60,927 nucleotides of DNA from an uncultured Methanosarcinales archaeon (lineage in GTDB: Archaea > Nanobdellota > Nanobdellia > Woesearchaeales > JAGVZT01). The DNA is taken from NCBI GenBank assembly GCA_964419615.1, contig CAYQPU010000004.1, positions 1 to 60,927 on the forward strand, given 5' to 3'. How positions within the stretch are numbered: position 1 is the stretch's first letter; every line of letters starts with the position of its first letter. Under the pieces are notes generated by a model. It saw only the letters and a program-made list of their open reading frames with translations. It was not told the DNA's origin and did no database searches. A program made the translations under genes and the position numbers. This document shows, piece by piece, positions 42,271 to 55,982 of this stretch.

Positions 42271-43661
42271 ATCAATACCTCCAATCTTTGCCTTACATCT
42301 ACTGCACATGGTCTTTTCAATGGATCTTTGTCTAGCATCTCATAGACCAATTCCTTTAATTCAGGATTAACATTCAAAACTTCAGAATCTCTGACAGGAC
42401 TATAGGCATGTGCAAGTCCATATTTTAACACCTCACTTTGCCTGCAATCTTCACCTTCTTTGAAATCAAAAAATTCAAAAGGATGTTCTCCAGTCAAAGT
42501 TTCATAAAGAACAATACCAAGCTGAAAAATATCTGAAGCCTTATAAGAAGTAAAACTTAAAACCATCTCTGGTGTCAAGTATCTTGGTGTGGACAATAAT
42601 GAATGAGCTTTTTCACCATGTTGTACCATACCAAAATCAAGTAATGTCAAATCTTCACAATGCACAATAATATTCTTAGGCTTTACATCCATGTAGATAA
42701 TATCTTGTTCGTGCAGATACTTCAAAACATCAGCTAAATCTCTAGCATAACTTATTGCTAATTCTTGTGAAAGCAAATTAGCTGGATCAATATGTTCAGT
42801 GAGTTCATGTCCTTGTGCAAACTCAAAGATCAAAAACTCTGTACCTTCATGGAAAAAACTACCATAATAACCCACAATATTTGGATGTTCAATTTGTTCT
42901 AAAATCTCTTTTTCTCTTGTTTGACCTTTAGGATCAGCATAATCTAGCTGAAACCTAAGTCTTTCTTTTAAAACTCGATCTCCATCTGGAGTGTGTATAG
43001 CACATAAAAAAGCAGAATTTGGAAAAAACCTATCTTCATCACCCTCTTGGATAACACCTAAAACCCTAGCACCATTTTTACAAGCATAATCTTCCACTAA
43101 ACTTAGATTCTGTTCTCTATTAGAGCTCTTTCTAATATTGTAATCAATCTTTGCCAAATGGATTAAATCAGGATTCTTTGTTTTCTTAGCAAGAAAATAT
43201 TTAATAGGAGTGTTACCTCCTCCAGTTGAAACCAATTCCTTAACATTTTCCTTTAGCACCTCAGTTGGATCAAGACCAATTTGTGAAATCTCATTTTTAA
43301 TCCTCTCAAAATCAACAGTTTGAATATAAAAACCATCTTCATCATGATAAAGAGGGATCATAGAAAATGATCTATCAAGTAGAAAGTCAAAATACTCATC
43401 AGGAGATGCAAGTGCTTTTACGACATTAATGTCTCCACCATACCATAATGCTACTTGTCTTAATTCATCAATTCTATCTTGATTACCTGATTTACTATAG
43501 TATTGCAAAGCTTTTTCCAAACTCAAGTTTAATAGATATGCTGTTCCTGCAAACTCAGACGATTGAGAATCATTAGAACTTAAGACAACCTGATCAATAC
43601 TCTCAAGACTAGCAACATCTCCAAGATCAAAAACCTGTTTCATTAATTCATTAAGTTTCAT
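42267..43661 (-). CDS. Hanks-type Ser/Thr protein kinase (non-RD) with ~200-aa unknown N-terminal domain
   Basis: RVLK, REKEIL..IEHPNIV, YMDVKPKN, LLDFG, TPRYLTPE, SDIFQLG, KRP. Confidence 0.92.
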   Translation of the reverse strand: MKLNELMKQVFDLGDVASLESIDQVVLSSNDSQSSEFAGTAYLLNLSLEKALQYYSKSGNQDRIDELRQVALWYGGDINVVKALASPDEYFDFLLDRSFSMIPLYHDEDGFYIQTVDFERIKNEISQIGLDPTEVLKENVKELVSTGGGNTPIKYFLAKKTKNPDLIHLAKIDYNIRKSSNREQNLSLVEDYACKNGARVLGVIQEGDEDRFFPNSAFLCAIHTPDGDRVLKERLRFQLDYADPKGQTREKEILEQIEHPNIVGYYGSFFHEGTEFLIFEFAQGHELTEHIDPANLLSQELAISYARDLADVLKYLHEQDIIYMDVKPKNIIVHCEDLTLLDFGMVQHGEKAHSLLSTPRYLTPEMVLSFTSYKASDIFQLGIVLYETLTGEHPFEFFDFKEGEDCRQSEVLKYGLAHAYSPVRDSEVLNVNPELKELVYEMLDKDPLKRPCAVDVRQRLEVLI

Positions 43662-44449
43662 TCTTCAAACTCATCTCTAAACATACTTATGCTTGCATTA
43701 GCGTACAATTTGCAAAGTGTTGTAATTGCATAAACAGAAGCATCATACTCCCTACCTGCAAGAAGAGTATTTTCGATAAACTCAATATCACATTCATCAT
43801 CAATAAAATCCAAAGCAGCATCACAAAAAATTGCAGCTTTTATGTCATACCTTGAATTAATTGTTGGCAGAACATCTTTTATCACTTCATTATTAATCTG
43901 ATCTACAACTAAAGCTGCAAGACTAATATAGTGACTTGGCACATCCCTAAGATTGTCAAAAGAACCTCCTGCAACCACATTAAGTCTATCATATCTCTCT
44001 TTACTCTCAGCTTCAGTGGATGGATCCAGGATGTTATTCATCAAGTATTGAGCAACAATATACTTTAGCACAAACTCTAGATTTGGATCAAGTTCTGGAT
44101 CTCTTCTCTCCATCTCATCCCCAAATTCAGCAATCCTTGCAAACATAGAAAAATCATCAAAGAAAACTGTGGCAGCATAATCCATCACTACAAAAGCTTT
44201 AAAAAAATCTTCTCTGGTAGTTTTTATAGGATTATTAATAGCCTCATCACTAACAAGTTTATCAATATAAAGAGCTTGTACTGGACCAAAGTTTAATGGA
44301 AAATCCTTGCTAGAGTCATCTGGTAGATTCTGTAAAGTATAACCAAACATTACTAGTTGATGAGTTTCAATCTCACCCAGGTCAATCTCTCTAATGTTTG
44401 TTTTTGTATTCTTGTTCTTTAATGCTGCAATTAAATCTATATCATTCAT
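43658..44449 (-). CDS. Hypothetical helical acidic protein with a DDxxD motif
   Basis: ATG 44449 overlaps the E1 stop; FFDDF and FIDDECD segments; family not established. Confidence 0.6.
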   Translation of the reverse strand: MNDIDLIAALKNKNTKTNIREIDLGEIETHQLVMFGYTLQNLPDDSSKDFPLNFGPVQALYIDKLVSDEAINNPIKTTREDFFKAFVVMDYAATVFFDDFSMFARIAEFGDEMERRDPELDPNLEFVLKYIVAQYLMNNILDPSTEAESKERYDRLNVVAGGSFDNLRDVPSHYISLAALVVDQINNEVIKDVLPTINSRYDIKAAIFCDAALDFIDDECDIEFIENTLLAGREYDASVYAITTLCKLYANASISMFRDEFEE

Positions 44450-45860
44450 TTTGTTCACCATACAAATGCCCCATTTTTTCCATCCAATCACTTTTGTGAG
44501 CTCTTGGTTTACATCCCCCTTGCATTGAGAAAACACCGAATCTAAGGTCCTCTCTAGTACTATACTTGATGATACCCTTCAATGGATCCTTACCATTTGC
44601 AAGCCTTATTGCCTCACCAACAAGAGCAGAACCCATTGTCTTATTTGTATTAATTACAGAGGCATCAGGTGCGTAAATGCAACTAGCAGGATTATAAGAT
44701 GCAAGAGCCATGTCATCAATACCAGTCTGGCAATCAAGGCATGCAGTTCTACCTGGAAACACAGTACTAACCTGACCACCACTAGTACTAGTACCAACAC
44801 TCAGATATGGAACACCATATTCATTGACTAAATAATTTAGCAAAGCTCTAGTTGCATGATTGTCAACACAATCCACAACCAAATCAATACCCTCAAATAG
44901 ATAATCAGAATCTAAATCTACTTTAGCGTCAATAGCAGTAATGTTTGCTTCAGGTTTAATCCTAAGCAATTCTCTTCTTAAGGCCTCAGACTTCTTATGA
45001 CCAACAGAATTATGGAAAAATACTTGTCTGTTTAGATTATGATCTTCAACAACATCATAATCAACTATGATTAATTCACCAACTCCAGCTACAACAAAAC
45101 CCTTTGCAGTAAAATTACCTGAAGCACCTGCTCCAATCTGTAAAACAGTCAAATCAGAAATATCAGTTGAAGTAAGAGGAGAATTTCTCTTCCAATCAAA
45201 TCTACTTGCAGACTCCAAATTATAAACAATAATATCCTCAAGTTCCTCCTCTCTTTCAAGAGGCATTACTAATTTTCTTGCCTCATCAACACCAAATCCT
45301 GCAATAAATTGACTAGGAATCACTCCCTGAGGTTCTCCAAAAAAATCATGAAACAAAGCATTTTGAAAAATCTCCATGCTTGAGTCAAGAGTATAAACCG
45401 CACCAGCTGAAACTTTCTCAGATGCAACCAAACTAACAACTGGAATATCAAAATCTGCTGCATATTCCAAAACATTAAGCTTTGATATAGGGTTATTTGT
45501 TGCTTCAATAATAACATCAGGATCACCAATGAGAGTAACATTCCTACCTTTAGCAACATCTATGTTATGAGCTCTAACTTCAACATCTGGATTTATTTTC
45601 TGGGCAAACTCTGCAATTGACTTTGCTCTGACCCTTCCTGGTGAATGCACATAACCCTGTGTGAAATCTCTTTCCTGTGCAATTCCATGTCCATATATTT
45701 CTATTTGACCAAAACCAAGAGCTGCTAAAGTGACTGCACAGTCGTTGGCTAAAGCATCTCTGCCAATCAAAGCAACCTTGGCATCACTTAATAGCTCTTG
45801 ATCCCATCCATCTATTAGTTCTTGTCTATTGTATCTATTAACCTGGTTCATATTATTCAC
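44442..45860 (-). CDS. Ubiquitin-like activating enzyme E1 with two ThiF domains (inactive + active adenylation)
   Basis: N-domain RYNRQ with degenerate IGRDALA. C-domain GAGASG, DYDVVEDHNLNRQ, DCVDN, TACLDC and PASC (candidate catalytic Cys). Confidence 0.9.
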   Translation of the reverse strand: MNNMNQVNRYNRQELIDGWDQELLSDAKVALIGRDALANDCAVTLAALGFGQIEIYGHGIAQERDFTQGYVHSPGRVRAKSIAEFAQKINPDVEVRAHNIDVAKGRNVTLIGDPDVIIEATNNPISKLNVLEYAADFDIPVVSLVASEKVSAGAVYTLDSSMEIFQNALFHDFFGEPQGVIPSQFIAGFGVDEARKLVMPLEREEELEDIIVYNLESASRFDWKRNSPLTSTDISDLTVLQIGAGASGNFTAKGFVVAGVGELIIVDYDVVEDHNLNRQVFFHNSVGHKKSEALRRELLRIKPEANITAIDAKVDLDSDYLFEGIDLVVDCVDNHATRALLNYLVNEYGVPYLSVGTSTSGGQVSTVFPGRTACLDCQTGIDDMALASYNPASCIYAPDASVINTNKTMGSALVGEAIRLANGKDPLKGIIKYSTREDLRFGVFSMQGGCKPRAHKSDWMEKMGHLYGEQNE

Positions 45861-47392
45861 CTTGTTTTGTATCTCCTCAACTTATTGCCACTCAGTAAGT
45901 GAGATTCAATCAAACCATCAACTTGATGAGCATCCTCTTGGTATAAAACTGGAAAATCTGTGAGAAAAGTAACAAAATTCTCGTCTAAATTACCTCTAAA
46001 AAGATCATCAGTCAACTGATAACAGACATAAGATCTTTGTGGAAGCAAGAAGAAATCTCTTACACCGGCTTTTGGTCTTCGTTTTGAAAATTTTACTGCG
46101 TGTGAAAAATCACAGTAATCAGTTCCAACCATCTTATCAACAATGTTGGCAACAAATTTTCTATACTTATGATCATATCTCTTATCAAAATCAATATGCT
46201 CCCCCATTGCATACTCAGCCATTGCCCACTGTACTTCTTGGGCAAGAAAGTAACAATCTTCTAACCTGGAAGCTTGATCTTTTCCCATGGCAACAGCAGT
46301 ATCAGGATCAATTAGAAAATTCTGAACAAATTCCAAAAAGACTGTATTCCTAAGCTCAAATATCTCAAGTTTTTCTCCTGAATTCAATTCTTGCATTGAG
46401 GTATAGCTAAACCTCTCCATAAAATCAGCAATAAACTCTTCTTCTGACAATGGGTCATTTAGATTAGCAAATTCTTCGTTTACTAAACTCTCATAGAGCA
46501 TTTCCTCAGGATTAGCACCTAAAATGCTCGTAATCATATGAGAATGCTCACCACCACTAGAAATATAATCAATAGCACACCCAAAAAATTGTCTTCCTAG
46601 TTCCTGATACTCTTTTGAGAAATCCGGACCTCTAACTCTTTCTCTGTAAAATACTCCACTAATTGAGATCTTATTTCTAATATCCTTTTCAATATTTGTA
46701 AGTGTATATGATACACTTTCTGGATCGTTAAAAACAAACATCCTTGGTCTAGTGGGACTATTTCGCAAAAATTCACCATTGACTTTTGTTTTACTCATAT
46801 GCTCTAAGTAAAACTCTTCTCTAACATTTACAACAAGGCTGTATGCAAATGGATCTCTCTCAATTTTCCTTAGAATTCTAGCATCATCACTAACCTGTAC
46901 ACCAGACAAAGTATAATTATCAAACTCAAGCAAATCATCTTCAGTAGTAAACACAGCTTCACTGGTCTTAAACATGGTGTGTGGGGCAATTCCATTTAGA
47001 ACCTTTTGAAAGTTCCTCACATCAGTATCAGAATGAAAGGTACTCATTGTTCCATGTGAGTGCCACCAACCAGCTATCTCGTAATTCATACTATCAATAA
47101 TTCTAACCGAACGAGCTACTCCCTCTGGACTAACTCTAACATAAGCACTCTCTGCAGACTGATTATCGGCTAGGTAAACATCGGTTATAACATCATCTAA
47201 GGAGCCTTTTGGTTTAAGCAAGTAACCATAAGCTTCCATCGGTTGGTTGGACATCTCTGTAATTAATTTTGAATACAAAAAAGCCTTATTCAGAGCAGCA
47301 CTAGAAATATGAAATTCTCTAGATACATCAAATTCAGTTTGTTGCTGAGCCAATTGATTTAATATTTGTAATCTTTGTAATCTTTGTGTCAT
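45857..47392 (-). CDS. JAB/JAMM metallopeptidase with ~300-aa C-terminal extension
   Basis: PMEAYGYL and GWWHSHGTMSTFHSDTD form a complete E..HxH-x7-S-x2-D motif. Confidence 0.9.
   Translation of the reverse strand: MTQRLQRLQILNQLAQQQTEFDVSREFHISSAALNKAFLYSKLITEMSNQPMEAYGYLLKPKGSLDDVITDVYLADNQSAESAYVRVSPEGVARSVRIIDSMNYEIAGWWHSHGTMSTFHSDTDVRNFQKVLNGIAPHTMFKTSEAVFTTEDDLLEFDNYTLSGVQVSDDARILRKIERDPFAYSLVVNVREEFYLEHMSKTKVNGEFLRNSPTRPRMFVFNDPESVSYTLTNIEKDIRNKISISGVFYRERVRGPDFSKEYQELGRQFFGCAIDYISSGGEHSHMITSILGANPEEMLYESLVNEEFANLNDPLSEEEFIADFMERFSYTSMQELNSGEKLEIFELRNTVFLEFVQNFLIDPDTAVAMGKDQASRLEDCYFLAQEVQWAMAEYAMGEHIDFDKRYDHKYRKFVANIVDKMVGTDYCDFSHAVKFSKRRPKAGVRDFFLLPQRSYVCYQLTDDLFRGNLDENFVTFLTDFPVLYQEDAHQVDGLIESHLLSGNKLRRYKTR
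46699..46719. promoter_or_regulatory. Intragenic copy of the NrtR-like operator
   Basis: TAAGTGTA-TATGA-TACACTTT, with a perfect AGTGTA-N5-TACACT core. Confidence 0.4.
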
Positions 47393-47399
47393 TTTATTC

Positions 47400-48818
47400 T
47401 CACTCCATTAATTCATTTAATACAACAAGACCTCTTCTATCCACTTGTTCTCTTGTTAACCAATCTGAGAAATGGTTTTTGTCAAGTCTGTTGTATGGAT
47501 TATTCCCGGATCTATATCCTGTCATTAGTGTTTTTGTGCCCTGGTCTAACAATCTTGCAACTTTTTCCTCAGAATTTAAACGATGAGTGTTTGAAGCAGT
47601 ACTCCAACTACCAAGGCAAATTTTTTGCATTGATGAACTGCCAGACAAGAATGGATGTGCGTAGCTGTTTATAACAATTGGATTACCTACATCAAAACCA
47701 CTTCCACTTTGAGAAATTCTTACAGCAACCTCAGCAGGTCCAAAAGGAACATAACAATCCTGACTACTTACATGAGGACTCTTTAGTGCATATGGTGGAG
47801 TTCTAACAAAAGCATAATAACCTCCATTTAATATCTTAAATCCTGCATCATTAACAACATATTCCCGTCTATTGGCTAATTGTTCCAACCTTTGTCTTTG
47901 CTCAGCAATCTTGTGTAGTTCAAGACTTTGATATTCATCATTTTCAATTGCAGCAATTTTAATTCTTTTCTCAAGCAAATTTCCATGAAGCCTTTCAACA
48001 TCATCTGCACTTCCAACAAGAATTGGAAAATACAACCTATCATCTAGGAAGACAGATGAAGTATTAACTAAGTTTTTTAATTTTGAATATAATCTTCTAT
48101 CAATATCGAATCTTTCTGTTGTAAGTAATGAAGCTGCTTCATCTTTACTTGCTGTGGTTGGAAATCGTCTAAATGCAGCACAAGCACTCGGTGTCATTTC
48201 CTCCTGAAATTCTTCTCCAAGTTCAGGTACAGTAAACAACATGTAAACTCTGTCATCAACTATTAAGAAAGGATTGGTACCCAAGGCCTGTGTTAGGGCA
48301 GAATAATCTCCTGAAGCATTTGTAACAGGTCTATACTCATTTTCAATTCTTGAAACTAAATCCCTTTTTACCCGAGCCAGCTCCCGTAATACAGATAAAG
48401 GAACTTCAACTGCACCTTCTGGTTGTTCATAAACAATATCTTCACCTAGTAACTCAAGCAATCTTTGATCACGATTCTCATCAGTAATTAATGGTAAAAC
48501 TCTATCCGCCAAAAATGCTAAAGTTCTGTTATTACTTATTAGCTGATTGATTCTATCCCTTGACATGTAATCTTGTCTTGACAAAGTACGCATGAATCTT
48601 GTTTGAAAAGCAACAATAGCTTCCTGATTTCTTTCCATATACAGTGACTCTAATTCATCAATCTCCATAACAGGCTCAACAGAATAATCTATACCTGCAA
48701 GATCTAGAAAATCAACCCCATTATCTCCTAATGTTGTTTGAAAAAGTGTATCATTGTAAATAATTAAAGGTGTTTCTAAATCAAATAAATTTGTTCCAGG
48801 TAATGTGCTTGATCTCAT
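47400..48818 (-). CDS. E2 (UBC-fold)-like conjugating protein with long N-terminal region
   Basis: ATG 48818 with GAGGA SD; C-terminal YAHPFLSGSSSMQKICLGSW resembles the E2 HP..ICL active site; preceded by a coiled-coil segment. Confidence 0.68.
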   Translation of the reverse strand: MRSSTLPGTNLFDLETPLIIYNDTLFQTTLGDNGVDFLDLAGIDYSVEPVMEIDELESLYMERNQEAIVAFQTRFMRTLSRQDYMSRDRINQLISNNRTLAFLADRVLPLITDENRDQRLLELLGEDIVYEQPEGAVEVPLSVLRELARVKRDLVSRIENEYRPVTNASGDYSALTQALGTNPFLIVDDRVYMLFTVPELGEEFQEEMTPSACAAFRRFPTTASKDEAASLLTTERFDIDRRLYSKLKNLVNTSSVFLDDRLYFPILVGSADDVERLHGNLLEKRIKIAAIENDEYQSLELHKIAEQRQRLEQLANRREYVVNDAGFKILNGGYYAFVRTPPYALKSPHVSSQDCYVPFGPAEVAVRISQSGSGFDVGNPIVINSYAHPFLSGSSSMQKICLGSWSTASNTHRLNSEEKVARLLDQGTKTLMTGYRSGNNPYNRLDKNHFSDWLTREQVDRRGLVVLNELME

Positions 48819-48835
48819 TTTATTCCTCAGTTTTG

Positions 48836-48883
48836 AAAAAAAAATTGCCAGAAGAAAACCAGCAGCTAGCGGTTTTAATCTGG
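48836..48883 (-). terminator. Hairpin plus T9 tract between the Ubl and E2 genes
   Basis: Stems CCAGA/TCTGG (48848-52 with 48879-83) and AAAACC/GGTTTT (48855-60 with 48871-76), then A9 at 48836-44 (T9 on the minus strand). Confidence 0.55.
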
Positions 48884-48900
48884 ACAAAGTAAAACTAATA

Positions 48901-49368
48901 TTACCTACCTCCTTCCTCATGCGTTAGTATTGCAAGTTTTAGGTAATTGAAAGGAGCTGCACCTGCAATCTCTTCCTGATAAAACCTATCACTTTGCGAT
49001 ACTGTTTGAGTTAGGGTGCTTCCACCTGTAGGTTGTCTCTCATTGTACATAACCATGTGGTTATGTTGACCCAAACGCTCAACAACGTTATCTTTAATCG
49101 TTACTTCAGATCCTTGTATTGAGGTTTCATTGATCATGTAATCAACAATTCCTGCAATACTCAAGTTACCGTCCTCCATAACGTCTGGTGGAATTGTTCT
49201 AGTGATATACGAACTAGACAACCCACCTCCGAGCTCAACAATTGTTTTTAACTCCGGGTCAAATTCGGGTGTTATCTCTGGAAGTACATCTACTTCCGTT
49301 TCAATCGGTTCTACATCTGTACTTAATCTTCTTTGATATGTACTAGATGATGAATCCATACTTACCAT
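48901..49368 (-). CDS. Ubiquitin-like (beta-grasp) modifier candidate, C-terminus ...LKLAILTHEEGG-R
   Basis: C-terminal GG plus one residue after a hydrophobic strand; first gene of the Ubl-E2-JAB-E1 run; strong GGAGGT SD. The fold is inferred. Confidence 0.62.
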   Translation of the reverse strand: MVSMDSSSSTYQRRLSTDVEPIETEVDVLPEITPEFDPELKTIVELGGGLSSSYITRTIPPDVMEDGNLSIAGIVDYMINETSIQGSEVTIKDNVVERLGQHNHMVMYNERQPTGGSTLTQTVSQSDRFYQEEIAGAAPFNYLKLAILTHEEGGR

Positions 49369-49823
49369 TTTTTTACCTCCACATTTATTATCTGATGACT
49401 AATATGTCCCTTCATGACCAGATAATCTGTTAGTATCTGCTCATGATCAAATGCAAACTGGTTCTTTCCAAGCATATCTACAACATCATCAATTGTATAG
49501 AACTTGGCAGCTTTTGCATCACTACCACTCCTGATTATTCCGCGAGCTTTTGCAGTGTATACCACACTAACAATCCTAGCTCTTGGATCTCTGCTTGGTT
49601 GAGAATAAATACCAAACAATTTAGGAGTGGAAATTTCTAAACCAATCTCTTCCCATGTTTCCTTCCTTGCATTCTCTTCTGTTGTTGTATATGGTTCAAG
49701 AATACCTCCTGGAATAGCTTTTTTACCAGCAGGATTATAGCGGTCAATCAAAACCAAACCATCTACACCATTGCTAGAATATTCAATTATAACATCTGTA
49801 GCAACATACAAAGGTTCGTTCAT
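49362..49823 (-). CDS. Nudix hydrolase, ADP-ribose pyrophosphatase-like
   Basis: AIPGG..ARKETWEEIGL (partly degenerate box), SQPSRDPR, SDAK, AFDH. Confidence 0.82.
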   Translation of the reverse strand: MNEPLYVATDVIIEYSSNGVDGLVLIDRYNPAGKKAIPGGILEPYTTTEENARKETWEEIGLEISTPKLFGIYSQPSRDPRARIVSVVYTAKARGIIRSGSDAKAAKFYTIDDVVDMLGKNQFAFDHEQILTDYLVMKGHISHQIINVEVKKW

Positions 49824-51619
49824 GGTAGCACCTCAATTCTTCTTTTAATATGAGAATAAACATCATTGATGTCATAGCCACCAAGGTAATGGTTAATGAT
49901 TGTCTCTCTATTACTAAAACCTCTACTACGGGGAGAAATTATTACTATTGGAGCTCCTTGAGCACTTTTGAAGACAGACCGTCTTGAATTATCAAATGCC
50001 TCCCAAGTCTCATTGCTAAACTGCTGGGCGGAGTACTTTTCATAAACAGATTTTCCTTCAAAGTCAAGAGGGAAAAAATCCTGAGTTAATGTTCCTTGTT
50101 GAAAATCTGCAATAATCTCCAAAGGACCTTTTCTATTTCTTATTAGCTCAGCATCAATACCGGATCTAACCCAATAATCAATAGGATCTTCTTTAGCATC
50201 AGCAAGTTCAGCCATTGGCTTAATAGTACCATCAAATAATGGCTGAGGAATAACCTCATCACCAAATCTTTCATTTATGTAATCAGCAAATTGATAAAGC
50301 TCAACTTTAGTAAGATCACCAATTAAAGCATGCACACCAATACTACCAATATCGTGAAAAGTAGCCCAACCTTCAACAATTTCAGTATGGTTACCAGTAG
50401 CAACTATTCCAGACTTAAAATGATGATACGCACCAATACCTTGAACTGTTCTCAATACAGCTTGAATACATGCTTTTCCAACAAGGCTCGGTTCTTTTCC
50501 AAAAGCATTTTTATGTGACTCAACAACACTCTGGTATGGTTCTTGAGTAGAGTTCCAATGCAGCTTAACACTTAACTTATCAGCAAGATACTGCGCAAAA
50601 CCTTTTGTAATATCACCATTATCCTCAGTTGGATTGGTTATAAGGACAGTATGATCAGCACCCATTGCATCATAAACAATTGTTGCAACAATAGCACTAT
50701 CAATACCACCACTTACATGAACTTGAGCGTTTGGAATACCTATAACATCAAAGATTTCCTTTTGCTCAAACACAAGTGCATCATAAATCTCTTGATACTT
50801 AGTAAAAGAAGGTAATTTAGCAGCAGATCCTTTACCTGTTAATGGTACATCCACAACACAATAATCTGATTGAAATCTTTCTAATTCTACAAGTGGATTT
50901 CCTTCACTGTCAAAAGCAAAACTTCCACCATCATAAATAAGGATATTCTTAACAATATCCCCAACACCAACACCATTAGTCATCACTACAGGAATACCTT
51001 TGTTGGCTGCATGACCACCAAACAAATCCCTTCTGATCTCTTGTTTGTCATAGTGAAAGTAAGATTGATTAGGACTAACAATCAAATCTGCACCAAGATC
51101 CTTCAGTTCTTGTATTATATCTCTCTCATGATTTTGATGCCAAGCATCTTCACATATAGACACTCCCAGATTGATAGTCTCTCCATTTATTTGTACAGGT
51201 ATAACCTTTGTTACTTCACCTGATGTAAAGTACTTCCTATCTTCATGATGCTCTCCATTTGCCAGCAATACTTTGTCATAAGTGTCAATAACCTTTCCAC
51301 CTTGAATAACAGCAGCAGAGTTTGCAATTCGAAGGTCTCCATTGACTTTTTTCCCAAGCTGATCAACAAAGCCAACAATAGCGACCATATCATCAGGTAC
51401 TTCTTTTGCTATGATTTCCTCAAGCATTGAAATATTGTATTGTACGAAAGATTCTTGCTCAAAAAGAGCTCCGCAACAATAACCTGTAATAGCAGTTTCA
51501 GGAAACACCACAATATCTGCATTATCTTCCTTTGCCCATCTAATATTGCGGACTATTTGCTCAGTGTTTCCCACCAAATCTCCGGTTACAGGTTTTGTTT
51601 GTGCTAGAGCTACTTTCAT
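49820..51619 (-). CDS. nadE: Glutamine-dependent NAD+ synthetase
   Basis: Nitrilase triad FPE / YDK / ICED plus synthetase domain SGGIDS, TGNHTE, DLTK, PMAEL. Confidence 0.93.
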   Translation of the reverse strand: MKVALAQTKPVTGDLVGNTEQIVRNIRWAKEDNADIVVFPETAITGYCCGALFEQESFVQYNISMLEEIIAKEVPDDMVAIVGFVDQLGKKVNGDLRIANSAAVIQGGKVIDTYDKVLLANGEHHEDRKYFTSGEVTKVIPVQINGETINLGVSICEDAWHQNHERDIIQELKDLGADLIVSPNQSYFHYDKQEIRRDLFGGHAANKGIPVVMTNGVGVGDIVKNILIYDGGSFAFDSEGNPLVELERFQSDYCVVDVPLTGKGSAAKLPSFTKYQEIYDALVFEQKEIFDVIGIPNAQVHVSGGIDSAIVATIVYDAMGADHTVLITNPTEDNGDITKGFAQYLADKLSVKLHWNSTQEPYQSVVESHKNAFGKEPSLVGKACIQAVLRTVQGIGAYHHFKSGIVATGNHTEIVEGWATFHDIGSIGVHALIGDLTKVELYQFADYINERFGDEVIPQPLFDGTIKPMAELADAKEDPIDYWVRSGIDAELIRNRKGPLEIIADFQQGTLTQDFFPLDFEGKSVYEKYSAQQFSNETWEAFDNSRRSVFKSAQGAPIVIISPRSRGFSNRETIINHYLGGYDINDVYSHIKRRIEVLP

Positions 51620-51623: not shown

Positions 51624-52451
51624 TTATTCTCTTAGATACTCGGCAGTTGTAATGTAATTGATACCAACTTGTTGACACATTCTTCTTGCGGCGTCATCTG
51701 CACTTTGTTCAGTATCAAAACCAAGTGGTTCATACACAAGATGAGTTGCGGCATCTGCGATTATGTTGATATCAGCTTTTGGGAACATTTGTCTAATCCC
51801 ACTTCCAGTTTGATATACACAAATACCCATGACAACTCCTGTGATATCAAACGATAATTCTTCACCCTGTCCATACATCTCTTTGAGTAAAGTAAAAACA
51901 TTCATCTCAGCAGAAGGTACACCCGAAACTTCACCTAAGAAATCAGTTGCTTGCGTGGCTGAGCCATTAAACATGTGCTTTGCATTTATCACATACTCAA
52001 TTTTGCCTTCCAAGAAATCCTCTGGATCTAATCTTTGAACACCAAAAGTATCCTCAACATCTTCAAAAGAAAAGGCAGGTCTTGGCTTACCACCTTCATA
52101 ATTCTGAAAAAACACATGTCTTGGAACAATTAAGCCAGAACTTTTTCCTTGAACTGATTGGAGTAATTTATCTGTCAATTGTGGACTTGTTGTCTGTCCA
52201 GGTTGCACATCCAATTCTTCTAAATTATATTCATCACCTTTAACAAGATTATGCGCAGGGTATAATCCTCCATTTGAAATGAACTCTGAGCTATCCCTTG
52301 GATGAACATCAGTTAAGAATAAAGTAAGATCAGCTCTTTCATTTATTCTAACTGCATTATTTTTCTGCTCTTCTGTTGTTCCACAATAAAAACTCCCATT
52401 TTCATCAACGAAACTTTTTCCCCAATCAACTAACACATTTATTGTTTTCAT
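51624..52451 (-). CDS. pncA: Nicotinamidase (isochorismatase family)
   Basis: VDW (Asp), TDVH, YPAH, AKH (Lys), GVVMGICV (Cys); lies between pncB and nadE. Confidence 0.8.
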   Translation of the reverse strand: MKTINVLVDWGKSFVDENGSFYCGTTEEQKNNAVRINERADLTLFLTDVHPRDSSEFISNGGLYPAHNLVKGDEYNLEELDVQPGQTTSPQLTDKLLQSVQGKSSGLIVPRHVFFQNYEGGKPRPAFSFEDVEDTFGVQRLDPEDFLEGKIEYVINAKHMFNGSATQATDFLGEVSGVPSAEMNVFTLLKEMYGQGEELSFDITGVVMGICVYQTGSGIRQMFPKADINIIADAATHLVYEPLGFDTEQSADDAARRMCQQVGINYITTAEYLRE

Positions 52452-52467
52452 TTTTCCTCACCTTTAT

Positions 52468-52488
52468 ATATTGTATATTTTACACTAT
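52468..52488. promoter_or_regulatory. NrtR-like operator upstream of pncA
   Basis: ATATTGTA-TATTT-TACACTAT; one mismatch from a perfect 8-bp arm palindrome; lies in the 42-nt pncB-pncA spacer. Confidence 0.7.
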
Positions 52489-52493
52489 TTAAG

Positions 52494-53846
52494 TTAAAAA
52501 GTTTTAACCCATGGTTTTCTGTTTTGATATTTCTCAAACAGTTCAGTTTTTATTTCATCAAGACCAAAAGAGTGATCTATATCATACTTCTTTGTAACTT
52601 GTAGTTGTTTTAATTCAGAAGGCAGCATGCAAACACTATCAAGGGCATAATTCCTAATCTCATTCAAATCCCTTTTCTGAACAACTCTTTCTCCGCCCTC
52701 TACCATTAACTCAAGTAAAGATTCACCTTCTACAAATTCATCTTCAAGCGCAATAACATCTTTGTGCATGTGATCATCTTGATAAAATCTATACACCTGT
52801 TTTTTTCCAGGCAAAGTAACTTTACCTGGAGAAAGTTTCATCTTTGGACCTTGCTCATCTTCAACTAATTTGTAAACACCAGAAATCGCTGAAACTGGTT
52901 TTGCAGTAATCATCTCAGTTCCAACACCATAACCATCCATTGGACAACCTGCATCCACAAAATCAGCAATCTTGTACTCATTTAGATCACTGCTAACAAA
53001 AACATCAACATATTCAAGATCTTCACTATTTAGAATTGCCCTAACTCTTTCAGAGAGATAGGCAAGATCACCTGAATCAAGCCTAACAGCTTTCAACCTA
53101 TGACCTTGCTCTTCCATCTCTCTTGCTACAATGGCAGCTTTTCTTGCTCCTTCAAGAGTATTATATGTATCAATCAACAAAACACAATCATCAGGAAATG
53201 TTTTTGCATAAGCTCTAAATGCATCAATCTCATCTTCATAACTCATAATATAACTATGGGCTTGAGTTCCACTAATTGGAATACCATACTCCATACCAGC
53301 TTTAACATTACTTGTTGCAACTGCTCCTCCAATATAGGTAGCTCTTGCACCTTTAACAGCTGCATCCTCTTCCTGAGCTCTTCGAAGTCCAAACTCAACA
53401 ACAGCTGCTCCCTCAGCAGCATTAACAACCCTACTGGTTTTTGAAGCAATCATTGTCTGAAAATTTATCATATTAAGAAGAGCAGTTTCTAGGAACTGAG
53501 CCTCTGTTCTTGAAGCAGTAACCCTCATAATTGGTTCATTAGGAAAAACAACTGTACCTTCTTTTACAGAATAAATTTCTCCTTCAAACCTGAAATCATC
53601 TAAAAAGTCTAAAAACTCCTCATCAAACAAATTCTGTTCTCTCAAATAATCAATATCCTTATCTGAAAAATCAATAGAAGTTGCATAATCAATTGCATCT
53701 TCAATTCCAGCAGCAATAAAATAACCCCAATCTTCTGGCAGCTTTCTAATAAACAAATCAAAAGTTGCAGTATCATCTTTTAAGTCATCAACATAGGCAG
53801 CCATCATTGTCAGCTGGTACAAATCCGTTAGCATTGTTTTACTCAT
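52494..53846 (-). CDS. pncB: Nicotinate phosphoribosyltransferase
   Basis: LTDLYQLTM, EFGLRRAQ, GTQAHS, LIDTY, VRLDSGD, YGVGT. Confidence 0.96.
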   Translation of the reverse strand: MSKTMLTDLYQLTMMAAYVDDLKDDTATFDLFIRKLPEDWGYFIAAGIEDAIDYATSIDFSDKDIDYLREQNLFDEEFLDFLDDFRFEGEIYSVKEGTVVFPNEPIMRVTASRTEAQFLETALLNMINFQTMIASKTSRVVNAAEGAAVVEFGLRRAQEEDAAVKGARATYIGGAVATSNVKAGMEYGIPISGTQAHSYIMSYEDEIDAFRAYAKTFPDDCVLLIDTYNTLEGARKAAIVAREMEEQGHRLKAVRLDSGDLAYLSERVRAILNSEDLEYVDVFVSSDLNEYKIADFVDAGCPMDGYGVGTEMITAKPVSAISGVYKLVEDEQGPKMKLSPGKVTLPGKKQVYRFYQDDHMHKDVIALEDEFVEGESLLELMVEGGERVVQKRDLNEIRNYALDSVCMLPSELKQLQVTKKYDIDHSFGLDEIKTELFEKYQNRKPWVKTF

Positions 53847-53934
53847 CTTTATCACTTATTGTATTATTCACACTTAGTATAACCAAAAAAATATCCAGTC
53901 ATTTTTTGACTGGATCATATATAATCTGGTTACC

Positions 53935-53955
53935 TTAGTGTATAGAGTACACTAA
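53935..53955. promoter_or_regulatory. NrtR-like operator at the pncB promoter
   Basis: Perfect TTAGTGTA-TAGAG-TACACTAA palindrome (GT-N7-AC core), 4 nt downstream of the TATA box. Confidence 0.8.
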
Positions 53956-53959
53956 TAAC

Positions 53960-53974
53960 TATAAATATTTTTCG
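53960..53974 (-). promoter_or_regulatory. BRE-TATA promoter of the pncB operon
   Basis: Minus strand reads CGAAAAATATTTATA. Confidence 0.65.
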
Positions 53975-53992
53975 GTGTTTTAGTACATATTT

Positions 53993-54457
53993 TCAGAAAA
54001 TGCGAGTAACTTTATGCTTAGCTGGACCTTCCATTGGTTTGTTTTCTACAACAAAATATAATGGAACACTCTCTAAATCCTCTGATTGGAGATGGTCCCT
54101 AACCTGTCCCCTAATAAACCTCTTTAATTTCCTTTTGTGAGTATTTACTGTTCTATCAATAGACCATTCTTCTCCTCTTTCTATAGGTAATGAAGATTTA
54201 ATATTAGGATCCATCCTATTATATGAGACCTCTGCCAGAAATGTTGGTGTATTCTTAGAAGTATCTGGATTAGCAAGACGGTTTTGAATGTATGTCTCTA
54301 ATCCATATTGTGTGTTGATAGAAAGTTTATGACTATTTATCCTTTTATCCCAAGAGGTTAATAAACCATCCTCGAGCTGTAGAAGGGGCCAAATACCTGT
54401 TAAATCTGGATCACATACTAAGTACATTCTGGTTCTGAATGTATCACTTGGATTCAT
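53993..54457 (-). CDS. Hypothetical protein
   Basis: 154-aa ORF with upstream TATA; no family recognised. Confidence 0.6.
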   Translation of the reverse strand: MNPSDTFRTRMYLVCDPDLTGIWPLLQLEDGLLTSWDKRINSHKLSINTQYGLETYIQNRLANPDTSKNTPTFLAEVSYNRMDPNIKSSLPIERGEEWSIDRTVNTHKRKLKRFIRGQVRDHLQSEDLESVPLYFVVENKPMEGPAKHKVTRIF

Positions 54458-54574
54458 TTTAACTAAAATAAGTCTTTTTAGTATATAAATATTTCTATTT
54501 TCACCACTTGAAAGTGATGTTTAATCGCAATATTTATATATTGATAATTGTTTCAACATTATAAAGGTAGTAAT

Positions 54575-55228
54575 ATGAATATAACTCAATTAGCCTCATT
54601 CGGATTAATGCTTGGTGGTTTGAGATCTGCTACTAGAAGATCCAGATCAAGCTATGCATTAAGTTCTAGAAGAAGAGAAAAACAAAAGCCTGCTGAACCT
54701 GTTGACAGATCAGATATTGTTAAGGATCCAAACATGGTATATCATGAATATGAAGGAATTATATCTCCTAAGATTTTTTTATCTTATCTTAAGTTTTTTG
54801 AAAGTGAATTAATTGAACAATTCTCTAATGAACCAGTATCATATGAAATAGGATATTTCTTAAGAAATAGAAAACAAACAGAGCAGTTTATGATGGATGG
54901 AGACACAAAAGCTGTTATTAAACCAGGTTCAATTGATGATTTATTTGGAGAGACATTCCAAGCAAACAGAGCTAATTGGTTAATTGATGATTTCAAAATA
55001 GTTTATCAAGTGCAAGAACAAGATGTTACTGTAACTGTTGAATATGATGCAGAAACAGACCTAGCAGATGAATTACACATTACTGTTGAAGGTGATAATG
55101 ACTTTGCTGAGTCACTCAGAAAAAAGTTAAAGGACACTGATTTTCAACTTAAAGGTTTGCCTTCACCTAAGGAAGGTACGATTATGATTGATGACTGGTA
55201 TGGAGAATACAACTCTCCATTCTATTAA
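54575..55228 (+). CDS. Hypothetical protein
   Basis: ATG 54575; Arg/Ser-rich N-terminus, acidic C-terminus. Confidence 0.6.
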   Translation: MNITQLASFGLMLGGLRSATRRSRSSYALSSRRREKQKPAEPVDRSDIVKDPNMVYHEYEGIISPKIFLSYLKFFESELIEQFSNEPVSYEIGYFLRNRKQTEQFMMDGDTKAVIKPGSIDDLFGETFQANRANWLIDDFKIVYQVQEQDVTVTVEYDAETDLADELHITVEGDNDFAESLRKKLKDTDFQLKGLPSPKEGTIMIDDWYGEYNSPFY

Positions 55229-55234
55229 TAATCA

Positions 55235-55903
55235 TTATAAAAACACATGCACCTTTTCCTTAATACTACAATACTTCTTATCTTTAAAATAATATAATAA
55301 TGCAGGTCTATGAGCACCATCCTGATAATACTGATTAGTTTTATTTAAAAGCTCAAGCTTTCTAATCCTTTTTCTAAAGTTTCTTTTATCAAGCTCTTTA
55401 TCCAAAATGGTCTCATAAAGTTGCTGTAATTGGGTTAATGTAAATCTCTTTGGGAGAATCTGAAAAGCAATATTAGTTGTCTGTATCTCAAACTTTAATT
55501 CATCAAGAGCATCGTTAATAATTTTCCTATGGTCAAAGGCTAAATTTGGAAGAGTATCAATGTCAAACCACTTTGCCTGTTTTGCATCTGTTGAAGCAAC
55601 TAACTCATAATTTGGATTAACCAGAGCAATAAAAGCATTTGAAATTACTCTACCTCTTGGATCTCTACCAATGGTTCCATAAGTGCCAAGCTGCTTTAAA
55701 AAAACATCCTTAACACCAGTCTCCTCTTCAAGCTCTCTTTTAACAGCATCTTCAAGTTCTTCATCTGCATTAACAAAACCACCAGGTAATGCAAATTTAT
55801 TCTTAAATGGATTATTTTTTCTTTGAACCAACAGAATCTTAAGACTGTCATTTAAGACTGTAAACACCACAGCATCCACTGTATTACTAATTTGACTGCT
55901 CAT
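55235..55903 (-). CDS. nrtR: NrtR transcriptional regulator (Nudix + winged HTH)
   Basis: TVDAVVF, FALPGGFV..RELEEETGV, RDPRGRVIS, LAFDH, then FTLTQLQQLYETIL..LDKRNFRKR..HRPA.LY. Confidence 0.93.
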   Translation of the reverse strand: MSSQISNTVDAVVFTVLNDSLKILLVQRKNNPFKNKFALPGGFVNADEELEDAVKRELEEETGVKDVFLKQLGTYGTIGRDPRGRVISNAFIALVNPNYELVASTDAKQAKWFDIDTLPNLAFDHRKIINDALDELKFEIQTTNIAFQILPKRFTLTQLQQLYETILDKELDKRNFRKRIRKLELLNKTNQYYQDGAHRPALLYYFKDKKYCSIKEKVHVFL

Positions 55904-55907
55904 TTCA

Positions 55908-55928
55908 ATAGTGTACAACATACACAAT
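55908..55928. promoter_or_regulatory. NrtR-like operator at the nrtR promoter (autoregulation)
   Basis: ATAGTGTA-CAACA-TACACAAT; abuts the minus-strand TATA TTTATATA (55928-55935) and ends 4 nt before the ATG. Confidence 0.78.
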
Positions 55929-55982
55929 ATATAAATGTTCTGCTAAGAAACCTTTATAAATAAGTGAACTAAATAGCATATT

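What the first reader, a model, noticed from the sequence alone, without database searches (positions are those of the whole stretch)
52468..55935. Bacterial-type NrtR regulon wired onto archaeal TATA promoters
Seen: three intergenic 21-bp palindromes, TTAGTGTA-N5-TACACTAA (53935), ATAGTGTA-N5-TACACAAT (55908) and ATATTGTA-N5-TACACTAT (52468). The first two lie directly downstream of TATA boxes, over the expected start site. NrtR has an intact Nudix box. Established: NrtR binds 21-bp GT-N7-AC palindromes and is released by ADP-ribose. Inference: ADP-ribose derepresses nrtR, pncB and the pncA-to-nadK run including the Ubl cassette, making it an NAD-breakdown-inducible system.
Basis: partly seen in the sequence, partly recalled or inferred. 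Interest (0 to 1): 0.8.

Follow-up and report, generated by a model that had tools for sequence, protein, structure and literature searches.

The report
NrtR NAD regulon in DPANN archaea
A small archaeon carries a regulator family so far described only in bacteria (NrtR), and its DNA binding sites sit directly on archaeal-type promoters of NAD-recycling genes in an arrangement conserved across many related archaea, which gives a first testable model for how archaea control NAD supply.

Summary
At most 1 mismatch to WWAGTGTA-N5-TACACTWW gives 4 hits in the window against 0.03 expected.

The host is archaeal (PCNA, deoxyhypusine synthase). The NrtR homologues listed at 56-68% identity that carry a source name are nearly all labelled Woesearchaeota or Nanoarchaeota.

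In 10 related archaeal loci the same motif occurs 37 times (at most 2 mismatches) in 103 kb from the nrtR promoter onward, and 0 times in 95.5 kb of upstream flank.

Geometry is conserved:
- At nrtR the operator fills the gap between a TTTATATA box and a leaderless ATG.
- At the NAD operon a BRE/TATA is followed within 0-4 bp by a near-perfect operator.

The NrtR recognition helix (DKRNFRK) is identical to that of Bacteroides AraR, whose co-crystal reads GTGT and whose validated operators are GTGTA-N5-TACAC.

New here:
- a fourth site next to the pncB start (53856) and a fifth inside the JAB ORF (46699);
- a second operator class with an A-rich spacer placed just before Shine-Dalgarno sequences;
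- a terminator-like hairpin plus T-run between the two operators.

ADP-ribose as effector is plausible from pocket residues and an invariant Nudix box, but untested. The E1/JAB cassette is a lineage-specific insertion. I call it a new variant of a known kind.

The parts
55235..55903 (-). nrtR gene (222 aa): N-terminal Nudix domain with an intact Nudix box, plus a C-terminal NrtR-type winged helix
   Evidence: Pfam NUDIX 1.9e-22 and NrtR_WHD 2e-25. Translation. PDB BtAraR 4e-46 and SoNrtR 1.5e-31.
55908..55928 (.). Autoregulatory NrtR operator ATAGTGTA-CAACA-TACACAAT, filling the gap between the TATA box and the leaderless ATG
   Evidence: A candidate site at the same place (ending about 1-4 nt before the nrtR ATG) passes the motif screen in 7 of the 10 related loci and is degenerate in the other three.
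55928..55935 (-). TATA box of nrtR (TTTATATA on the minus strand), centre about 28 nt from the ATG
   Evidence: The window's usual TATA-to-ATG distance is 26-28 nt.
53958..53974 (-). BRE (cGAAAA) plus TATA (TTTATAGT) of NAD-operon promoter P1
   Evidence: BRE-like cGAAA/AGAAA plus TTTATATA lies 0-4 nt upstream of the distal site in all 14 distal sites listed (window, ten related loci and L005).
53935..53955 (.). Distal (class 1) NrtR operator, perfect palindrome TTAGTGTA-N5-TACACTAA. The predicted transcription start falls at its 3' edge (about 53933-53935).
53885..53915 (-). Terminator-like element in the leader: a 9-bp hairpin (53915-53893) followed by ATTTTTTT (T-run 53891-53885)
   Evidence: RNA fold -20.7 kcal/mol, z -5.19. 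Flagged as terminator-like. A hairpin is seen at the same place in most related loci and is followed by a T-run in L038, L041, L045, L048 and L005.
53856..53876 (.). On the minus strand it reads TAAGTGTG-AATAA-TACAATAA. It lies 8 nt after the T-run and 9 nt before the pncB ATG.
   Evidence: The same module is seen in L038, L041, L044, L045, L047, L048 and L005.
52494..53846 (-). pncB, nicotinate phosphoribosyltransferase
   Evidence: NCBIfam NF006696, 557 bits, above its cut-off of 503. Pfam NAPRTase_N.
52468..52488 (.). Class 2 NrtR operator in the pncB/275-aa spacer. On the minus strand it reads ATAGTGTA-AAATA-TACAATAT, followed by SD GGTGAGG (52456-52462) and the ATG at 52451.
   Evidence: Sites directly after the pncB stop are also present in L041 (15353), L044 (15260) and L048 (10557).
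51624..52451 (-). 275-aa divergent isochorismatase-like protein, the likely nicotinamidase (pncA) substitute
   Evidence: No Pfam hit. PDB isochorismatase E 0.033, N-terminus only. hhalign against the canonical pncA genes of related loci: probability 70.6%, E 3.9e-5, with invariant D9, K158 and C211 on the catalytic D, K and C.
40877..51619 (-). Rest of the tightly packed run: nadE (49820-51619), Nudix hydrolase (49362-49823), inserted cassette (155-aa, 506-aa, JAB 45857-47392, E1 44442-45860, 292-aa), Ser/Thr kinase (42267-43661), NMNAT-like (41713-42309), NAD kinase (40877-41716)
   Evidence: Pfam and NCBIfam. Junction gaps run from -95 to +7 nt. The cassette has no homologue in 11 related loci.
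46699..46719 (.). Fifth motif match with a perfect GTGTA-N5-TACAC core, inside the JAB ORF. TTTTTAAC lies 7 nt upstream on the minus strand. Its function is unknown.

Best explanation
The palindromes are operators of the adjacent NrtR-family repressor in a Woesearchaeota-like (DPANN) archaeon. They form a lineage-wide NAD-salvage regulon.

DNA recognition. An NrtR dimer reads T(T/A)AGTGTA-N5-TACACT(A/T)A. Its recognition helix is identical to that of Bacteroides AraR.

At its own gene, the operator occupies the roughly 24 bp between a TTTATATA box and a leaderless ATG. At the NAD operon, a strong BRE/TATA is followed within 2 bp by a perfect operator, so transcription should start at the operator's edge. 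Bound NrtR would therefore block TFB/RNA polymerase recruitment. This is the usual way archaeal repressors act. That step is inferred.

A second class of operator has an A-rich spacer and a weaker right half. It sits immediately before the Shine-Dalgarno sequences of pncB (53856) and of the pncA-like gene (52468). I infer that it acts as a second checkpoint. It could be a roadblock placed 8-10 bp beyond a hairpin plus T-run in the leader, or an internal promoter whose TATA lies in the operator spacer.

The inducer is most likely ADP-ribose or a close relative. The invariant Nudix catalytic motif suggests the regulator also hydrolyses it. This is inferred.

The output is pncB, a nicotinamidase-like gene, nadE, an ADPR-type Nudix hydrolase, NMNAT and NAD kinase. 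In this genome the output probably also includes an inserted E1/JAB cassette and a kinase.
For: The host is archaeal: PCNA, deoxyhypusine synthase and a beta-CASP RNase.

The protein is an NrtR: Nudix plus NrtR_WHD, with full-length matches to BtAraR (4e-46) and SoNrtR (1.5e-31).

The recognition residues match. K173, R174, N175, K178 and R199 correspond to BtAraR K179, R180, N181, K184 and R205. These are stated to define GTGT, and the validated BtAraR operators are AGTGTA-TTTGA-TACACC and AAGTGTA-AAAAA-GACACTT (PMC4666351). The residues are invariant, with K178 allowing K or R, in 120 homologues.

Motif statistics: 4 hits against 0.03 expected in the window. Across 10 archaeal loci there are 37 hits in 103 kb at and downstream of nrtR, and 0 in 95.5 kb of flank.

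The geometry is conserved. The window's own promoters calibrate the TATA centre at 26-28 nt from leaderless ATGs.

The gene order nrtR-pncB-pncA-nadE-Nudix-NMNAT-kinase is conserved.

The effector pocket is of the ADP-ribose type. SoNrtR ADPR contacts R41, N43 and R98 are kept as R28, N30 and R83. BtAraR has F36 and G89 at the latter two positions. R28 and R83 are invariant, and the Nudix residues E48, R56, E57, E60 and E61 are 99-100% conserved.

The leader hairpin plus T7 is supported.
Against: There is no binding, transcription or transcript-end data. Every mechanistic step is inferred from position.

The effector is not fixed within the family. BtAraR, the closest solved homologue, senses L-arabinose, and NdnR senses NAD. 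The N-terminal arm that holds adenine in SoNrtR (Y10, F15) has no counterpart in this shorter protein, and N30 varies (N, Y or K) among homologues.

The protein scores 153 bits on NCBIfam NF050029 against a cut-off of 400.

Class 2 sites lie 20-27 nt (site centre) from the ATG. That is shorter than the 26-28 nt of leaderless promoters here, so their role is unresolved.

T6-T9 runs occur inside genes of the operon, so a single transcript down to nadK is not assured.

Only about 20-kb windows of the related genomes were scanned, not whole genomes.
Confidence: 0.8

Rival explanations
1. The operators and regulator are as described, but the signal is not ADP-ribose. It could be NAD+, NaMN or NMN, ribose-5-phosphate, 2'-phospho- or O-acetyl-ADP-ribose, or a pentose. 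In that case the regulon reports NAD sufficiency or another pool rather than NAD breakdown.
For: Effectors differ within the family: L-arabinose for BtAraR and NAD for NdnR. The adenine-binding N-terminal arm of SoNrtR is missing here. The pocket position N30 is variable.
Against: The phosphate and ribose contacts R28 and R83 are invariant. They match the ADPR-binding SoNrtR, not BtAraR. The canonical Nudix metal-binding glutamates are conserved. The operon carries an ADPR-type Nudix hydrolase, and relatives carry ADP-ribosylglycohydrolase.
Confidence: 0.3
2. The palindromes act at the RNA level, as hairpins in leaders and between cistrons that control processing, stability or translation next to the Shine-Dalgarno sequence. 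They are not protein operators.
For: Class 2 sites lie 0-3 nt upstream of Shine-Dalgarno sequences and would be transcribed. They would form 8-bp hairpins.
Against: The nrtR site lies between the TATA box and a leaderless ATG, so it is not transcribed. The sequence is conserved across 32-55% GC genomes, not merely the ability to pair. The motif equals validated BtAraR operators, and the recognition helix is identical.
Confidence: 0.05
3. A different transcription factor binds the palindromes, and the NrtR homologue is only an ADP-ribose hydrolase encoded nearby.
For: The Nudix box is intact, so the protein could be purely an enzyme. No binding data exist.
Against: The winged-helix domain and all DNA-contact residues are invariant. 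A site sits in the nrtR promoter itself in most loci. The operon already carries a separate plain Nudix hydrolase.
Confidence: 0.04
4. The palindromes are chance AT-rich repeats, or the sequence is a bacterial or chimeric contig, so that the 'TATA boxes' mean nothing.
For: The genome is 33% GC, so TATA-like strings are common. The nearest bacterial NrtR homologues are from Bacteroidota.
Against: Shuffle statistics. Conservation in 10 loci, including genomes of 46-55% GC. Archaeal marker genes in the window and in related loci: PCNA and deoxyhypusine synthase, Cdc6/Orc1, an archaeal-type helicase domain. TATA position is regular at 26-28 nt across the window.
Confidence: 0.01

Closest known systems
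Bacteroides thetaiotaomicron AraR (BT0354; PDB 5BS6, 5DD4, 5DDG, 5DEQ), an NrtR-family repressor
   Same: It is the best solved homologue, E 4e-46, aligned without gaps over 204 residues. The DNA-reading helix DKRNFRK is identical and the wing arginine is kept. Both use the operator type GTGTA-N5-TACAC, including A-rich spacers and tandem sites.
   Different: AraR senses L-arabinose, has a degenerate Nudix box, controls pentose genes, and acts on bacterial promoters. The archaeal protein has an intact Nudix box and ADPR-type pocket residues (R83 where AraR has G89, N30 where AraR has F36). It controls NAD genes from BRE/TATA promoters.
Shewanella oneidensis NrtR (PDB 3GZ5, 3GZ6, 3GZ8) and the NrtR regulons of Rodionov et al. 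2008 (PMC2330246)
   Same: The two-domain architecture is the same. Both use a 21-bp palindrome with a GT-N7-AC core, and both pair autoregulation with control of pncA, pncB, nadE and nadD-type genes. The ADP-ribose contacts R41, N43 and R98 are conserved.
   Different: SoNrtR has a degenerate Nudix box and a long N-terminal arm that holds adenine. Its operator sequence differs. In the literature I could search, the family is described only for bacteria.
Archaeal repressors that bind over or just downstream of the TATA box and block polymerase recruitment (for example MDR1, LrpA, Phr, TrmB-type and NrpR; cited from my own knowledge)
   Same: The operator lies between the TATA box and the transcription start, or over the start. 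The factor is a bacterial-type DNA-binding protein working with the archaeal basal machinery.
   Different: Those regulators belong to other protein families and control other pathways. To my knowledge none controls NAD metabolism, and none is a Nudix fusion.
Bacteroidota NrtR loci, for example Chryseolinea, with ATTGTGTA-N5-TACACAAC upstream of nrtR
   Same: The core GTGTA-N5-TACAC is the same, and the site is upstream of nrtR.
   Different: In these bacteria the site lies about 90-115 bp upstream of the start codon. In the archaea it abuts a leaderless ATG behind a TATA box.

Membership tests
NrtR family (Nudix-related transcriptional regulators) | N-terminal Nudix-fold domain | tested here: met
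   Pfam PF00293, E 1.9e-22, residues 18-138 of the ORF.
NrtR family (Nudix-related transcriptional regulators) | C-terminal NrtR-type winged helix-turn-helix | tested here: met
   Pfam PF21906 at 2e-25 and PF19368 at 2.4e-17. Full-length alignment to BtAraR and SoNrtR.
NrtR family (Nudix-related transcriptional regulators) | 21-bp palindromic operators with a GT-N7-AC core at its own gene and at target genes | tested here: met
   for the window. for 10 related loci. The family definition is in PMC2330246.
NrtR family (Nudix-related transcriptional regulators) | DNA-contact residues matching a member with a solved DNA complex | tested here: met
   K173, R174, N175, K178 and R199 correspond to BtAraR K179, R180, N181, K184 and R205. 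K204 is replaced by H198.
NrtR family (Nudix-related transcriptional regulators) | Genomic and regulon link to NAD metabolism | tested here: met
   pncB, nadE, Nudix hydrolase, NMNAT and NAD kinase lie next to nrtR. The gene order is conserved.
NrtR family (Nudix-related transcriptional regulators) | DNA binding relieved by a small-molecule effector (ADP-ribose in the founding members) | not testable with these tools
   Only pocket residues could be compared. R28, N30 and R83 are of the SoNrtR type. The adenine-binding arm is absent.
NCBIfam NF050029 'ADPR responsive transcriptional repressor NtrR' (equivalog) | Score above the curated cut-off of 400 bits | tested here: not met
   153.5 bits. 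The protein is a family member but not an equivalog of that subfamily.
Catalytically active Nudix ADP-ribose pyrophosphatase | Intact Nudix box GX5EX7REUXEEXGU | tested here: met
   GGFVNADEELEDAVKRELEEETGV. E48, R56, E57 and E61 are in 120 of 120 homologues and E60 in 119 of 120. The 2008 paper links an intact box with activity. Activity itself was not tested.
Archaeal BRE/TATA promoter with repressor occlusion | Archaeal host, with a TATA box about 26-28 nt upstream of the start and the operator between the TATA box and the start | tested here: met
   Archaeal marker genes. Calibration on the window's own genes. The nrtR and P1 geometry in the window and the related loci.
Archaeal BRE/TATA promoter with repressor occlusion | Mapped transcription start and loss of pre-initiation complex when the repressor is bound | not testable with these tools
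   This needs transcript 5'-end mapping and in vitro transcription.
Leader terminator or attenuator | Stable hairpin followed by a T-run in the 5' leader, conserved in relatives | tested here: inconclusive
   In the window: -20.7 kcal/mol, z -5.19, T7. Hairpin plus T5-8 is seen in L038, L041, L045, L048 and L005. Other loci have a hairpin without a clear T-run. No transcript data are available.
Ubiquitin-like conjugation cassette (Ubl, E1, E2, JAB) | Recognisable E1 and JAB, plus a Ubl and an E2 | tested here: inconclusive
   E1 ThiF 1.4e-55. JAB 3.4e-8. The 155-aa, 506-aa and 292-aa proteins have no hit in Pfam, NCBIfam or PADLOC, so no Ubl or E2 was identified.

The most novel reading that the evidence does not exclude
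The paired operators that flank a hairpin plus T-run form a protein-dependent transcription attenuator. NrtR bound at the proximal operator sits 8-10 bp beyond the U-tract. It would stall RNA polymerase exactly on the terminator and force release. NAD-operon expression would then be gated twice by one metabolite sensor, once at initiation and once at elongation, and that sensor also destroys its own ligand. In this genome the same switch would place an inserted E1/JAB conjugation cassette and a protein kinase under the control of NAD breakdown.
Probability: 0.2. Interest if true: 0.75.

Novelty: new variant of a known kind. Interest (0 to 1): 0.58.

Why it matters
As far as I could find, how archaea regulate NAD synthesis and salvage is essentially undescribed. 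In the searchable literature NrtR is described only for bacteria.

This analysis gives a concrete and testable regulon for a whole branch of uncultured DPANN archaea. It specifies the regulator, the operator consensus, the promoter geometry and the target genes.

It also shows how one operator-regulator pair, shared with Bacteroidota, is placed differently in the two domains. In bacteria it lies about 100 bp upstream of the gene. In archaea it is wedged between the TATA box and a leaderless start.

DPANN cells depend on salvage, so this switch probably governs a central part of their cofactor economy.

The invariant catalytic Nudix motif suggests an enzyme-regulator that consumes its own inducer. 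The conserved terminator-like leader between the two operators hints at a second control layer.

Tried and rejected
- tRNA and Rfam scans of the window found nothing. A permissive Rfam scan of the pncB leader gave only chance-level hits, with no NAD riboswitch.
- The PWM hit at 9293 has the wrong half-site spacing (GTGT-N5-ACAC) and is coding. The hit at 59984 is a single half-site. Both were rejected as chance.
- I meant to use the Bacteroidota loci as a negative control, but several carry their own GTGTA-N5-TACAC sites upstream of nrtR. I therefore used the upstream flanks of the archaeal loci as the control instead.
- I considered reading class 2 sites as leaderless promoters with the TATA in the spacer. 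The site centre lies 20-27 nt from the ATG, against 26-28 nt for real leaderless promoters here, and a Shine-Dalgarno sequence intervenes. This was left open rather than adopted.
- I considered the hairpin plus T-run as simply the terminator of the upstream gene. I rejected this as a general explanation. In L038 and L044 the upstream gene is on the other strand, and in L048 nrtR has its own T-runs before the distal TATA.
- PADLOC did not recognise the cassette as a known defence system. It matched only the E1 part of the E1-E2 models and generic kinase models.
- The Structure 2009 paper on SoNrtR (PMC2896262) could not be read. I took the ADPR contacts from PMC4666351 instead.
- One further locus (P0091) came back without DNA.

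Full report
**Observation.**
- 52468-52488 ATATTGTA-TATTT-TACACTAT
- 53935-53955 TTAGTGTA-TAGAG-TACACTAA (perfect)
- 55908-55928 ATAGTGTA-CAACA-TACACAAT

Each carries G6T7...A15C16. That is the GT-N7-AC core that Rodionov et al. give for most NrtR motifs (PMC2330246).

A strict degenerate pattern finds 2 of them against 0.00 expected. At most 1 mismatch to WWAGTGTA-N5-TACACTWW gives 4 hits against 0.03 expected, with a maximum of 1 in 200 dinucleotide-preserving shuffles. At most 2 mismatches gives 6 against 0.5.

The additional hits are 46699-46719, which has a perfect core and lies inside the JAB ORF, and 53856-53876, which lies next to the pncB start. A hit at 59984 is only a half-site, and one at 9293 has the wrong spacing.

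**Genes.**
- The ORF at 55235-55903 (minus strand; the true ATG is at 55903) has a Nudix domain and an NrtR-type winged helix (Pfam 1.9e-22 and 2e-25).
- Its Nudix box GGFVNADEELEDAVKRELEEETGV is intact.
- pncB is unambiguous at 557 bits.
- Downstream on the same strand lie a 275-aa protein, nadE, a Nudix hydrolase, five cassette genes that include a JAB protein and a ThiF-type E1, a Ser/Thr kinase, an NMNAT-like protein and NAD kinase.
- The junction gaps from pncB to nadK run from -95 to +42 nt.
- The 275-aa protein has no Pfam hit. Its family aligns to the canonical isochorismatase/pncA genes of related loci with hhalign probability 70.6% and E 3.9e-5. Its invariant D9, K158 and C211 fall on the catalytic triad.

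**Host.**
The window encodes PCNA, deoxyhypusine synthase and a beta-CASP RNase, so it is archaeal. Its GC content is 33%.

The best 120 NrtR homologues listed share 56-68% identity. The source names among them are almost all Woesearchaeota, Nanoarchaeota or plain "archaeon", with one KSB1 bacterium. The nearest bacterial relatives found (Saprospiraceae and other Bacteroidota) reach only 53%. The regulator is thus a stable feature of a DPANN lineage and not a one-off transfer.

**Comparative evidence.**
I fetched 10 independent archaeal loci with GC from 32 to 55%: L038-L042 and L044-L048. All keep the gene order nrtR, then pncB, a pncA-type gene, nadE, Nudix, NMNAT and a kinase.

The same motif is present in every one. 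At most 2 mismatches gives 37 sites in 103 kb from the nrtR promoter onward, and none in 95.5 kb of upstream flank.

**Geometry at nrtR.**
Anchoring the window and the ten related loci on the nrtR ATG shows a TTTATATA-type box ending about 24 nt upstream of the ATG. The interval down to the ATG is where the operator lies. A site there passes the motif screen in the window and in 7 of the 10 related loci. In L040, L042 and L046 the interval holds only a degenerate palindrome.

In the window the TATA box is at 55928-55935 and the operator at 55908-55928, followed by 4 nt and then the ATG.

The window's other genes calibrate this. Many have TTTATATA or TTTAAATA centred 26-28 nt before the ATG and no Shine-Dalgarno sequence, so leaderless transcripts are the norm. 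The nrtR operator therefore covers the region from the TATA edge to the transcription start.

BtAraR covers 25 bp of its duplex (PMC4666351). If NrtR does the same, bound NrtR should exclude TFB and RNA polymerase. That last step is inference.

**Geometry at the NAD operon.**
In the window, the ten related loci and L005, a purine-rich BRE-like element (cGAAA or AGAAA) and TTTATATA lie 0-4 nt upstream of a near-perfect "class 1" site with consensus TTAGTGTATAcyATACAMTAA.

In the window the BRE/TATA is at 53958-53974 and the site at 53935-53955. Using the 26-28 nt calibration, transcription should start at about 53933-53935, the 3' edge of the operator.

**Second operator class.**
A "class 2" site lies 49-85 bp downstream of class 1 in most loci. 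Its consensus is TAAGTGTA-WAAAA-TACAATAA. The spacer is A-rich and the right half is weaker.

It is followed within 0-3 nt by a Shine-Dalgarno sequence (GGTGA or GGAGG) and, 5-8 nt later, by the start codon.

The window has two such sites. Sites directly after the pncB stop recur in L041, L044 and L048.

**Leader element.**
A hairpin lies between the class 1 and class 2 sites. Its sequence differs between loci.

In the window it is a 9-bp stem followed by ATTTTTTT. The leader folds at -20.7 kcal/mol with z -5.19, and the terminator scan flags it.

A hairpin followed by T5-8 also occurs in L038, L041, L045, L048 and the more distant L005. The T-run ends 8-10 nt before the class 2 site. Other loci have a hairpin without a clear T-run.

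It is not simply the terminator of the upstream gene. In L038 and L044 that gene is on the other strand, and in L048 nrtR has its own T-runs before the distal TATA.

I see two readings:
- NrtR on the proximal site acts as a roadblock that holds polymerase on the U-tract, which would be a second, elongation-level checkpoint.
- Class 2 sites are internal promoters with the TATA in their spacer. The site centre is only 20-27 nt from the ATG, which is short of the 26-28 nt norm, so I leave this open.

**Why NrtR is the binder.**
The closest solved structure is B. thetaiotaomicron AraR (4e-46, gapless over 204 residues).

Its co-crystal shows K179, R180, N181, K184, K204 and R205 making the specific contacts that "define the GTGT motif". 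Its experimentally validated operators are AGTGTA-TTTGA-TACACC, AAGTGTT-ACTTT-TACACC and AAGTGTA-AAAAA-GACACTT (PMC4666351).

The archaeal protein has the identical helix DKRNFRK (residues 172-178) and R199. Only K204 is changed, to H198. D172 to F176 and R199 are invariant in 120 homologues, R177 is in 119 of 120, and residue 178 is K or R.

Several Bacteroidota loci also carry GTGTA-N5-TACAC upstream of their nrtR, but about 90-115 bp from the start codon. The operator-regulator pair is thus shared across domains while its placement differs.

**Effector.**
This step is not shown. ADP-ribose releases the Shewanella, Synechocystis and Mycobacterium NrtR proteins. BtAraR senses L-arabinose and NdnR senses NAD.

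I mapped the contacts listed in PMC4666351 onto the alignments:
- SoNrtR R41, N43 and R98, which contact the phosphates and ribose of ADP-ribose, correspond to R28, N30 and R83 here. BtAraR has F36 and G89 at the latter two positions.
- SoNrtR K76 corresponds to E61, a canonical Nudix metal-binding glutamate.
- R28, R80, R83 and H125 are invariant. The catalytic residues E48, R56, E57 and E61 are in 120 of 120 homologues and E60 in 119 of 120.

The 2008 paper links an intact Nudix box with activity. Against ADP-ribose, the N-terminal arm that holds adenine in SoNrtR is absent and N30 varies.

I rate ADP-ribose or a close relative as the most likely signal, at roughly 0.55. The protein may also hydrolyse it.

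**Cassette.**
The 155-aa, 506-aa, JAB, E1 and 292-aa proteins have no homologue in any of the 11 related loci. The cassette is therefore an insertion into a conserved NAD operon.

Only the E1 (1.4e-55) and the JAB protein are recognisable. No Ubl or E2 was found with Pfam, NCBIfam or PADLOC.

Its co-regulation rests on overlapping or near-abutting genes. T6-T9 runs occur inside several genes of the run. The perfect-core site at 46699 inside the JAB ORF may be a further control point or may be chance (about 3%).

**Novelty.**
Full-text searches combining NrtR with archaea, Woesearchaeota or DPANN returned no description of an archaeal NrtR or of its regulon. A 2023 study of Sulfolobus Nudix proteins describes NrtR as bacterial and found no HTH-fused Nudix protein there.

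Bacterial-type regulators acting on archaeal promoters are the rule, so the principle is not surprising. What is new:
- the family's presence and conserved regulon in DPANN archaea;
- the re-placement of a Bacteroidota-type operator between the TATA box and a leaderless start;
- the invariant catalytic Nudix motif;
- the two operator classes with a terminator-like leader between them.

**Verdict.**
I rate it a new variant of a known kind, interest about 0.58.

Noticed in passing
window 43658-49368 (minus strand): Five genes (155 aa, 506 aa, JAB 511 aa, ThiF-type E1 472 aa, 292 aa) are inserted into an otherwise conserved NAD operon. None has a homologue in 11 related archaeal loci. No Ubl or E2 is recognisable, and PADLOC matches only the E1 part of its E1-E2 models.
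   Followed up: partly
window 46699-46719: A motif match with a perfect GTGTA-N5-TACAC core lies inside the JAB reading frame (it encodes ...ESVSYTLT...). TTTTTAAC lies 7 nt upstream. The same octamer also precedes site 52468 by 4 nt. It could be an internal operator or promoter, or chance.
   Followed up: partly
window 53885-53934 (minus strand); L038, L041, L045, L048, L005 at the same relative place: A terminator-like hairpin plus T-run lies between the two NrtR operators, with the T-run ending 8-10 nt before the proximal operator. In the window the leader also forms an outer 9-bp stem. It contains a 14-codon micro-ORF (ATGATCCAG...TAA) that is not conserved elsewhere.
   Followed up: partly
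window 42267-43661; L038-L048: A eukaryotic-type Ser/Thr protein kinase is a conserved member of the NAD operon across these archaea. It is followed by conserved proteins of about 330 aa and about 300 aa, the latter 'PK'-like. The window's copy has an extra N-terminal extension of about 200 aa. Its role in NAD metabolism is unknown.
   Followed up: no
window 51624-52451; L038, L039, L045, L047: A 275-290-aa divergent isochorismatase-like protein takes the place of canonical pncA in some genomes. It has an insertion of about 50 aa and invariant D, K and C residues. L045 has both forms.
   Followed up: yes
window 15348-21147 (minus strand): Three adjacent ORFs (686, 565 and 682 aa) each encode a ribonucleotide reductase large-subunit barrel. 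Two have ATP cones. A tandem triplication like this is unusual.
   Followed up: no
L041 12021-13055 and L045 16845-17873: ADP-ribosylglycohydrolase genes lie inside the motif-bearing clusters of two relatives. In L041 a site sits 1 nt before the gene's start. This fits an ADP-ribose-centred regulon.
   Followed up: partly
L041, L042, L045, L047, L048, and the P0091 locus (gene table only, no DNA), between the distal operator and pncB: One to three small conserved-position ORFs (68-127 aa, no Pfam hit) are the first genes of the NrtR-controlled operon in several relatives. The window lacks them. Instead it has two unrelated orphan genes (53993-54457 on the minus strand and 54548-55228 on the plus strand) between nrtR and pncB.
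   Followed up: no
L005 and L026 (42% identical NrtR; labelled Methanosarcinales MAG and Hainich groundwater 0.1-um fraction): A more distant NrtR clade shows the same module just after nrtR: distal operator, hairpin plus T-run, then proximal operator. The architecture therefore extends beyond the closest relatives.
   Followed up: partly
window 55953-55985: The divergent mscS-like gene (55983-57059) has its own TTTATAAA box 26 nt before a leaderless ATG. That box lies 24 bp from the nrtR operator, so NrtR probably does not control it.
   Followed up: partly
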